Shown in pieces: positions 1-1,648 of a stretch of DNA of 1,648 bases (its first letter is position 1; each line of letters opens with the position of its first letter). Position numbers and translations under genes: made by a program. The notes under the pieces are model-generated. The model did no database searches, was not told the origin of the DNA, and saw only the letters and a program-made list of their open reading frames with translations. The DNA is from Escherichia phage ECO95 1-6-1, in the sequence record OR845764.1. One strand, 5' to 3'.

Positions 1-77
1 CCTGCAGGGCGTGGATCAGCGCTTCCTGTTCGGCCAGGCGCTGTTTCAGCAGGAAGATGTCGTCAGAAGAGATGTCG
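1..77. repeat. Copy 1 of an exact 77-bp direct repeat; identical to 1572..1648, which is tnpC 5' coding sequence on the minus strand
   Basis: Direct base-by-base comparison shows 77/77 identity with 1572..1648. Read on the minus strand it encodes the same coiled-coil peptide ([26 protein letters not shown]) and runs off the window start. Confidence 0.95.
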
Positions 78-104
78 GTAAGCGTACAGCGAGGGCCGTA
101 TTGA
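78..104. repeat. Putative right terminal inverted repeat of the IS66-family element (outside-in on + strand: GTAAGCGTACAGCGAGGGCCGTATTGA); inner boundary is approximate
   Basis: Begins with the GTAAGCG heptamer exactly at the breakpoint where the terminal duplication ends, and lies immediately past the tnpC stop. The partner left repeat is not in the window, so its length and pairing cannot be verified. Confidence 0.5.
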
Positions 105-114
105 CGGGGATGTG

Positions 115-1647
115 TTATTCAGCTGGCAGTGCTATGCGCCACGGAAGCAGTTCGCTGACCCGGTTGACCGGCCAGTCTGCTATGACGCCAAGCACATGGC
201 GAAGGTAGCTTTCTGGATCCACGTCATTCAGTTTGCACGTCCCGATCAGGCTGTACAGTAGCGCTCCCCGCTCACCACCATGATCAGAGCCGAAGAACAG
301 GAAGTTTTTACGACCCAGACTGACCGCCCGCAGGGCATTTTCAGCGATGTTGTTGTCGATTTCCACCCAGCCATCGTTCGCATAGTACGTCAGTGCCGGC
401 CACTGGTTAAGTGCGTACGCGAACGCCTTCGCCAACTCTGAGTGTCGCGACAGGGTCTTCATCTTTTCACGCAACCAGCTTTCCAGGGATTTCAACAACG
501 GTTTCGTTTTTCGCTGACGTTCAGCAAGCCGCTGCTCTGCCGGCATTCCCCTTATATCCGCCTCTATGGCGTACAACTGACCGATCTGCTCCAGGGCTTC
601 TTCCGTCAGTGCTGACGGGATGCGGACGTGCACATCGTGGATCTTTCGGCGGGCATGAGCCCAGCAGGCAGCTTCCGTTATCCCACCATTGCGATACAGC
701 TCGTTGAACCCGGCGTACGCATCCGCTTGCAGCACACCGCTGAAGCAGGCAAGATGAGTCTGCGGATGGATGCCTTTTCTGTCCGGGCTGTAAGCGAACC
801 ACACTGCAGGTGCCAACGCTGACCCTGCATTGCGGTCATCACGAACATACGCCCACAACCGCCCGGTCTTCGTCTTCTTATTACCCGGCAGCAGTACCTG
901 GACCGGGGTATCATCGGCATGGAGTTTGCCGTCAGTCATGACATAGCCATGAAGCGCCTCTTCCAGCGGAGACAGCAGCCGGCAGCATGCATCCACCCAG
1001 CCCGACAGCAGTGAACGCCTCAGCTCCACACCTTGCCGGCCGTATATTTCTGACTGGCGATACAGCGGGGTGTGCTCTGCATACTTCGAGGTCAGCACGC
1101 GGGCCAGCAGCCCCGGTCCGGCGATACCCCGCTCGATGGGCCGCGAAGGTGCAGGTGCCTGCACGATGGCATCGCACTGAGTACAGGCATGTTTTTCCCG
1201 TACCGTCCGGATAACCCGGAAGGCGCTACGCATCAACTCCAGCTGTTCGGCGGTATCCTCGCCCAGATAGCTCAGTGAACCGCCGCAGTTCGGGCAGCAC
1301 GGCGCCGCAGGCAACAGTCGCTTTTCGTCACGGGGTAGTGATTCAGGGAACGGCTTACGGGTGCGGGTCTGACGCAACGGACGCTGTACTGCCGGGTCAT
1401 ACACCCTACCAGTCAGCGTATCGCTCTCTTTCTGAAGCCGGTTCAGATCGGCTTCCATTTGTGCGATACGGCGGGAGACTTTTTCGGAACGACTGCCGAA
1501 GTTCATCCGGCGGAGTTTATCCAGCTGCGCCTGCAGATGGTCTATTTCGCGCTCCCGGTTGCTCAGCTTTTCCTGCAGGGCGTGGATCAGCGCTTCCTGT
1601 TCGGCCAGGCGCTGTTTCAGCAGGAAGATGTCGTCAGAAGAGATGTC
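115..1647 (-). CDS. tnpC: IS66-family transposase (TnpC-type DDE transposase), 5'-partial in this window; the longest ATG-initiated ORF is 115..1506 (463 aa)
   Basis: Seen: an uninterrupted minus-strand frame runs from stop TAA (117..115) to the window edge; the first in-frame ATG is at 1506..1504, and 47 further sense codons lie upstream with no stop and no ATG/GTG/TTG. The protein carries motifs I recognise as IS66 TnpC hallmarks: CxxC...CxxC zinc-finger cysteines (C71/C74 and C108/C111, nt about 1174..1296), LHADDT (D198 at 913..915), LQADAY (D262 at 721..723), CWAHARRK, and [14 protein letters not shown] (E389 at 340..342). The upstream 47 codons ([47 protein letters not shown]) have leucine/isoleucine at 3-4 residue spacing, like the TnpC N-terminal leucine zipper. 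Family assignment is from established knowledge of IS66 transposases, not a search. Confidence 0.93.
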
Positions 1648-1648
1648 G
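1572..1648. repeat. Copy 2 of the exact 77-bp direct repeat; part of the tnpC 5' coding region
   Basis: Identical to 1..77. It ends at the last base of the window, so the real extent of the identity beyond the window is unknown. Confidence 0.95.

What the first reader, a model, noticed from the sequence alone, without database searches (positions are those of the whole stretch)
1..1648. No tnpA or tnpB in the 1,571-bp unit: a fragment of a three-ORF IS66 element, or a single-ORF ISBst12-like organisation
Established: canonical IS66 elements are about 2.5-2.7 kb and encode tnpA, tnpB and tnpC, with tnpC last; a subgroup (ISBst12-like) carries only the tnpC homologue. Seen: only tnpC and one terminus are present. 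Inference: most likely tnpA, tnpB and the left end lie beyond the graph branch point at 1648. A single-ORF element seems less likely, because no left inverted repeat (the reverse complement of the 78..104 sequence) occurs anywhere in the window and the coding frame runs straight through the position where it would sit.
Basis: inference. Interest (0 to 1): 0.35.

Follow-up and report, generated by a model that had tools for sequence, protein, structure and literature searches.

The report
Right part of nested ISEc8 copy
The window is the right-hand 1,571 bases of ISEc8, a well-known three-gene E. coli insertion sequence, and it closes on itself because one ISEc8 copy jumped into the start of another copy's transposase gene on an O157 virulence plasmid, so the finding is ordinary.

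Summary
The window is a 1,571-bp unit plus an exact 77-base end overlap. On the minus strand it carries only an IS66-type transposase gene (tnpC, missing its first 5 bases) and one GTAAGCG-type terminus. It has no tnpA, tnpB or left repeat.

The unit is 100% identical to bases 872-2442 of ISEc8, a 2,442-bp IS66-family element present in thousands of E. coli genomes. Complete copies have IRL-tnpA-tnpB-tnpC-IRR and 8-bp target duplications. The single-ORF ISBst12-like reading is rejected.

The terminus at 78 abuts CGACATCT, which is bases 6-13 of tnpC. This junction occurs uninterrupted in only three records, all 92,653-bp plasmids (pNZRM3614, AC-3, AC-5). pNZRM3614 was dissected. There, a complete ISEc8 lies 13 bases inside the tnpC of a second ISEc8 and is flanked by the 8-bp duplication CGACATCT. 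This makes the 1,571-bp unit a perfect two-copy tandem repeat, which an assembly graph folds into a loop.

Known element, known mechanism, low interest.

The parts
115..1647 (-). tnpC of ISEc8 (IS66-family DDE transposase): codons 3-512 plus the stop. The first 5 bases (ATGAA) lie beyond the window edge.
   Evidence: Open frame. Pfam PF03050, PF13817, PF13007 and PF13005. [quoted passage not shown] Start codon seen in L002 at 2996.
1324..1539 (-). Leucine-zipper region of TnpC (PF13007)
   Evidence: residues 37-108 of the 510-aa translation.
1171..1299 (-). Zinc-finger region of TnpC (PF13005)
   Evidence: residues 117-159.
271..1131 (-). DDE catalytic domain of TnpC (PF03050)
   Evidence: residues 173-459, E 2.1e-106.
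139..252 (-). IS66 C-terminal element of TnpC (PF13817)
   Evidence: residues 466-503.
78..104 (-). Right terminal inverted repeat (IRR) of ISEc8. The element ends at window base 78 (...GCTGTACGCTTAC on the minus strand).
   Evidence: The same end abuts different flanks and 8-bp duplications in L002, L003 and L004. The first 13 bases, and 20 of 27 in all, match the IRL.
70..77 (-). Right copy of the 8-bp target duplication CGACATCT made by the nested insertion. It is also bases 6-13 of the interrupted outer tnpC.
   Evidence: L001 6084-6091 directly after the inner IRR, and L001 3634-3641 directly before the inner IRL.
1..77 (-). Start of the second tandem unit: the outer tnpC resuming after the inner element. 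It repeats 1572..1648 exactly and is the 77-base graph overlap.
   Evidence: Window minus strand = L001 4513-6160 exactly.
1572..1648 (-). Bases 6-82 of tnpC, the same 77-mer as 1..77. It starts with CGACATCT at 1648..1641. In the graph it has two predecessors: ATGAA of an intact copy, or the IRR of the nested copy.

Best explanation
The window is bases 872-2442 of ISEc8, a 2,442-bp IS66-family insertion sequence organised IRL-tnpA-tnpB-tnpC-IRR, followed by a 77-base return to its own start. It returns because, in the source genome, a complete ISEc8 copy transposed into a second ISEc8 copy 13 bases into that copy's tnpC and duplicated the 8-bp target CGACATCT. The result is L-T-[L-T-R]-T-R, where L is the 871-bp left part carrying tnpA and tnpB, T is the 8-bp target and R is the 1,563-bp remainder of the element. 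The 1,571-bp T-R unit therefore occurs twice head to tail, and a k=77 assembly graph collapses it into a loop. The source is most likely an E. coli O157:H7 of the NZRM3614 lineage, whose pO157-type plasmid carries this arrangement between lpxM and stcE. Shown: sequence identity, element anatomy, both junctions, both target duplications and the tandem repeat in a complete public plasmid. Inferred: that the sample has the same two-copy arrangement, that the loop comes from the assembler, and that the outer tnpC is inactive because it lost its start codon and upstream region. The inner copy is intact.
For: An exact 77-base overlap defines a 1,571-bp unit. The whole window is 100% identical to ISEc8 in complete genomes; 3,210 records have a best match of at least 99% identity. 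The standard copy L002 2130-4571 is 2,442 bp with TSD CGAAAAAC and carries tnpA, tnpB and tnpC. The IRR|CGACATCT junction is found unbroken at 100% only in pNZRM3614, AC-3 and AC-5 (PLSDB). The matching left junction ATGAACGACATCT|GTAAGCG is found in the same three records. In L001 the unit lies at 4513-6083 and 6084-7654 in exact tandem, and the window's minus strand equals L001 4513-6160. The inner element, 3642-6083, is 2,442 bp and is flanked by CGACATCT. The outer element is flanked by TATGAATC. The inner and outer copies differ at one base, IRL position 12, and the inner T form is common in other ISEc8 copies. A second, independent ISEc8-in-ISEc8 insertion with its own 8-bp duplication (GATACAGG) occurs in p7636-1, so such events recur.
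Against: The source of the window is unknown and no reads are available, so I cannot show that it has exactly two tandem units and not more, or a free circle. In a strict k=77 unitig graph, the last 77-mer of the IS would itself be a branch point, because other ISEc8 copies have other flanks. The 1,648-base sequence is therefore probably an assembler path through two edges, which is an assumption. Two of the three supporting plasmids (AC-3, AC-5) come from one study and may be the same strain.
Confidence: 0.9

Rival explanations
1. A single-ORF, ISBst12-like IS66 element: tnpC alone between two inverted repeats, transposing without tnpA or tnpB.
For: Only that the window holds tnpC and one terminus and nothing else. 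The ISBst12 group is a real single-ORF subgroup of the family (PMC12898284).
Against: There is no left repeat in the window. The unit starts 5 bases inside the gene, so it does not even hold a complete ORF. The sequence is 100% identical to ISEc8, and every complete copy examined has tnpA, tnpB and the IRL 871 bases upstream. The junction at 77|78 has the 8-bp duplication of an insertion and is not an element boundary.
Confidence: 0.01
2. The loop reflects a real 1,571-bp circular DNA, or an array of more than two units, produced by homologous recombination between the two tandem units created by the nested insertion.
For: Perfect 1,571-bp tandem repeats are good substrates for RecA-dependent pop-out and expansion (general knowledge). 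A loop in a graph cannot tell two copies from many, or from a circle.
Against: Nothing requires it. All three junction-bearing records are the same length (92,653 bp), and the one dissected, pNZRM3614, has exactly two units. A circle would carry no origin of replication and only a decapitated tnpC, so it would not persist.
Confidence: 0.05
3. The junction is an assembly artefact (a chimeric read or k-mer coincidence) joining an ISEc8 end to an ISEc8 interior.
For: IS copies are a classic source of graph tangles, and the window alone cannot exclude it.
Against: The same junction, to the base, is present in a complete plasmid. Its partner junction and an 8-bp target duplication lie exactly 2,442 bp apart there. 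That pattern is the signature of transposition and is not expected from a chimera.
Confidence: 0.03

Closest known systems
ISEc8 (IS66 family; E. coli O157:H7 and relatives)
   Same: [quoted passage not shown] Same IRR, same 8-bp target duplications, and the same tnpA-tnpB-tnpC context in complete copies.
   Different: Nothing in the sequence differs. Only the context is unusual: here the right part is followed by the 5' part of another copy's tnpC, because of a nested insertion seen in three public plasmids.
Canonical IS66 / IS679 (three-ORF IS66-family elements)
   Same: Organisation tnpA (HTH), tnpB (PF05717), tnpC (DDE), with tnpA and tnpB overlapping, GTAAGCG-type ends and 8-bp duplications. 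From memory of Han et al. 2001 and Gourbeyre et al. 2010, which were not readable here, IS679 needs all three ORFs to transpose.
   Different: A different member of the family. ISEc8 is 2,442 bp and has a 49-base tnpB-tnpC spacer containing a hairpin that covers the tnpC AUG.
ISBst12 group (single-ORF IS66-family elements, e.g. ISDge4)
   Same: The transposase is a TnpC homologue, and the group also makes 8-bp duplications (PMC12898284).
   Different: ISBst12-type elements have the repeats directly around one ORF. Here the left repeat is 871 bases upstream of the unit, with tnpA and tnpB in between.

Membership tests
IS66 family (canonical three-ORF type) | DDE transposase TnpC with the IS66 domains | tested here: met
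   PF03050 E 2.1e-106, plus PF13007, PF13005 and PF13817, in window 115-1647 minus strand.
IS66 family (canonical three-ORF type) | tnpA and tnpB upstream of tnpC in the same orientation | tested here: met
   Absent from the window. Present in complete copies identical to it: tnpA PF01527 and tnpB PF05717, overlapping by 4 bases; the tnpB stop is 49 bases before the tnpC ATG.
IS66 family (canonical three-ORF type) | Imperfect terminal inverted repeats beginning GTAAGCG | tested here: met
   IRR at window 78-104. IRL GTAAGCGTACAGCCTGAACC at L002 2130. 13/13 then 20/27 identical.
IS66 family (canonical three-ORF type) | 8-bp target-site duplication | tested here: met
   CGAAAAAC (L002). TATGAATC and CGACATCT (L001). 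GTTCAACG (L003). GAATGACC and GATACAGG (L004).
IS66 family (canonical three-ORF type) | Element length about 2.4-2.7 kb | tested here: met
   2,442 bp in L002, L003 and both L001 copies.
ISEc8 specifically | Near-identity to the ISfinder reference sequence of ISEc8 | not testable with these tools
   ISfinder is not available here. The name rests on RefSeq/PGAP annotation of 100%-identical copies and on literature use for O157 genomes (PMC7430833).
ISBst12 group (single-ORF IS66 family) | One transposase ORF directly bounded by both inverted repeats, with no tnpA or tnpB | tested here: not met
   No IRL in the window. In complete copies the IRL is separated from tnpC by tnpA and tnpB.

The most novel reading that the evidence does not exclude
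ISEc8 may preferentially insert into or next to other ISEc8 copies and into a small hot spot on pO157. Two separate ISEc8-in-ISEc8 insertions with their own 8-bp duplications, one further ISEc8-ISEc8 junction whose right partner is missing, and three independent ISEc8 insertion sites within 152 bp of the lpxM-stcE spacer turned up in a handful of plasmids. If this is real target selection (local hopping or attraction to IS ends), the perfect tandem repeats it creates could also drive amplification or circle formation.
Probability: 0.15. Interest if true: 0.35.

Novelty: already known. Interest (0 to 1): 0.08.

Why it matters
It matters little biologically. ISEc8 is one of the two commonest insertion sequences of E. 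coli O157:H7, and the nested arrangement is already in public complete plasmids. The practical value is interpretive. A short self-closing graph unit that holds only a transposase gene and one terminus can be mistaken for a minimal single-gene element or a small circle. Here it is the footprint of one IS copy inserted in another. The nested junction is also a specific marker of the NZRM3614-type pO157 plasmid, found in three of the complete E. coli plasmids searched.

Tried and rejected
1. My first exact-motif search found only one IRL (GTAAGCGTACAGC) in L001, which briefly suggested the tnpA-tnpB duplication was not a nested insertion. Reading the sequence showed the inner IRL carries a G-to-T change at position 12, so the nested model stands.

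2. I considered that this T arose by mutation after insertion. That is unlikely, because the T form is widespread in other ISEc8 copies.

3. I expected standard pO157 to have the same outer insertion. It does not: EC4115-type plasmids carry a single ISEc8 59 bp away with a different duplication.

4. Pfam scans of ten other ORFs in the window gave nothing meaningful.

5. The primary IS66 papers could not be read. Han et al. 2001 (PMC95320) is not held and Gourbeyre et al. 2010 was not found. Statements drawn from them rest on memory and on secondary citations.

6. L002 and L004 were not available to the Python sandbox, so their ends were read directly with get_sequence.

Full report
**What is in the window**

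The first 77 bases equal the last 77 exactly, so the window is a 1,571-bp unit plus a 77-base overlap, as expected for a loop in a k=77 assembly graph.

On the minus strand one frame is open from base 1647 to a stop at 115-117, a total of 510 codons. The protein has all four Pfam domains of IS66-family transposases: leucine zipper PF13007, zinc finger PF13005, DDE domain PF03050 (E 2e-106) and C-terminal element PF13817.

Thirty-six bases past the stop, the element ends at base 78 with ...GCTGTACGCTTAC. On the plus strand this reads GTAAGCGTACAGC... at 78-104.

No second copy of this terminus, direct or inverted, occurs in the window with up to 8 mismatches in 27. Ten other ORFs of 53-98 aa show no meaningful family match.

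**What the element is**

The whole window is 100% identical to ISEc8 in complete E. coli genomes. Matches occur in 4,196 of 5,426 genomes, and 3,210 records have a best match of at least 99% identity.

A standard chromosomal copy (L002 2130-4571) is 2,442 bp. It starts with the IRL GTAAGCGTACAGCCTGAACC and is flanked by the 8-bp duplication CGAAAAAC. It carries three genes:
- tnpA (PF01527);
- tnpB (PF05717), overlapping tnpA by 4 bases;
- tnpC, 49 bases after the tnpB stop, beginning ATG AAC GAC ATC.

Window base 1648 corresponds to the C of the AAC codon. The unit is thus ISEc8 bases 872-2442 and lacks only the first 5 bases of tnpC.

The ISBst12-like single-ORF alternative (that subgroup is described in PMC12898284) is rejected.

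**Why the unit closes on itself**

On the minus strand the IS end at base 78 is followed directly by CGACATCTCTTCTGAC..., which is bases 6 onward of tnpC itself.

A 160-base probe across this junction matches unbroken at 100% in only three complete records. All three are plasmids of 92,653 bp: pNZRM3614, AC-3 and AC-5 (confirmed in PLSDB). NZRM3614 is a stx-negative O157:H7 from Austria (PMC8046923).

In pNZRM3614 the region between lpxM and stcE is annotated tnpA-tnpB-tnpA-tnpB-tnpC-tnpC. Base-level dissection shows:
- an outer ISEc8 at L001 2763-3641 plus 6084-7654, flanked by the duplication TATGAATC;
- an inner, complete 2,442-bp ISEc8 at 3642-6083, inserted 13 bases into the outer tnpC and flanked by the duplication CGACATCT.

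The left nested junction ATGAACGACATCT|GTAAGCG occurs in the same three plasmids only.

Because the insertion lies so close to the start of tnpC, the segment from CGACATCT to the IRR occurs twice in perfect tandem (4513-6083 and 6084-7654). The window's minus strand equals L001 4513-6160 exactly. A de Bruijn graph folds such a tandem pair into a loop. The 77-mer at the window ends has two predecessors: ATGAA in intact copies, and the IRR in the nested copy.

**How it most likely came about**

A complete element bounded by both inverted repeats and an 8-bp direct repeat of target sequence is the standard footprint of IS66-family transposition. The same footprint appears at five other ISEc8 sites examined here.

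The inner and outer copies differ at a single base, IRL position 12 (T versus G). The T form is common in other ISEc8 copies, including many O157 chromosomes. The donor was therefore probably another T-type copy and not the outer element; this is inference.

The outer tnpC has lost its ATG and everything upstream of it. No ATG, GTG or TTG lies in frame between the preceding stop and the junction. The next in-frame ATG is at window 1506, codon 48 of the window's 510-codon frame. The outer copy is therefore probably transposase-defective, whereas the inner copy is intact; this is also inference. PGAP nevertheless annotates the decapitated gene as a 509-aa protein starting at ATC.

**Rivals**

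- A single-ORF element is excluded by the complete copies.
- A true 1,571-bp circle, or an array of more than two units arising by recombination between the tandem copies, cannot be excluded without reads. Nothing requires it, and pNZRM3614, the junction-bearing plasmid dissected here, holds exactly two units.
- An assembly chimera is unlikely. In a complete plasmid the identical junction has its partner junction and target duplication exactly 2,442 bp away.
- One caveat on the graph: in a strict unitig graph the last 77-mer of the IS should itself branch, so the 1,648-base sequence is probably an assembler path through two edges. That is an assumption.

**Comparison with what is known, and verdict**

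All defining features of a canonical IS66-family element were tested and met: the TnpC domains, tnpA and tnpB, GTAAGCG-type imperfect repeats, an 8-bp duplication and a length near 2.4 kb. Identity to the ISfinder reference could not be tested, so the name ISEc8 rests on RefSeq annotation and literature use (PMC7430833; PMC10758439).

ISEc8 is among the commonest insertion sequences of O157:H7, and the nested arrangement is already in public records. The finding is ordinary and already known. Its only practical value is as an example of how an IS-in-IS insertion can look like a minimal element or a small circle in graph output, and as a marker for the NZRM3614-type plasmid.

**Seen in passing**

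- Among pO157 plasmids, ISEc8 sits at three different positions within 152 bp of the lpxM-stcE spacer, each with its own duplication, and the reconstructed pNZRM3614 and EC4115 empty sites are identical.
- Two further ISEc8-into-ISEc8 arrangements exist. p7636-1 has an insertion in the 3' end of tnpA with duplication GATACAGG. pMB41_1 has one 117 bases into tnpC, with the right partner missing.
- Whether this reflects target preference or only the high IS load of these plasmids was not tested.

Noticed in passing
L001 2755-2762, L003 4132-4139, L004 about 2176-2183 (pO157 lpxM-stcE spacer): Three independent ISEc8 insertion sites lie within 152 bp in different pO157 plasmids, with duplications TATGAATC, GTTCAACG (+59 bp) and GAATGACC (+93 bp further). 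After removing the IS, the pNZRM3614 and EC4115 empty sites are identical. The spacer appears to be a decayed transposase remnant, judging by its partial 'transposase' and 'hypothetical protein' annotations. This may be an insertion hot spot.
   Followed up: partly
L004 2642-5083 (p7636-1) and L005 4114-6555 (pMB41_1): Two more ISEc8-into-ISEc8 arrangements exist. p7636-1 has a complete copy in the 3' end of another copy's tnpA, with 8-bp duplication GATACAGG. pMB41_1 has a copy 117 bases into another tnpC near espP, but the right-hand flank is unrelated (TTTTCAGT...), so the outer right part was lost or rearranged.
   Followed up: partly
L002 2972-2998, just upstream of window base 1648 (outside the window): A 9-bp-stem hairpin, AUAAGCCCG-loop-CGGGCUUAU, sits in the 49-base tnpB-tnpC spacer, and its 3' arm includes the AU of the tnpC AUG (MFE -20.1 kcal/mol, z -3.67). 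It could limit tnpC translation. The nested insertion lies 13 bases after the AUG.
   Followed up: partly
L001 3653 (IRL position 12 of the inner copy): ISEc8 left ends come in two forms, GTAAGCGTACAGC and GTAAGCGTACATC. Both are widespread in O157 genomes (779 records have a best match of at least 99% identity to the T form). The two forms could be used to trace donor copies.
   Followed up: partly
L001 6088-7617: RefSeq/PGAP annotates the decapitated outer tnpC as an intact 509-aa 'ISEc8 family transposase' (WP_115333691.1) starting at an ATC codon. This is probably an annotation artefact and not a functional gene.
   Followed up: no
PLSDB record CP032835.1, 52195-52841: A 93.6-kb plasmid labelled Klebsiella pneumoniae matches both halves of the junction probe at 100%, as two pieces about 650 bp apart. 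ISEc8 is evidently present there in some rearranged form. The species label and the structure were not examined.
   Followed up: no
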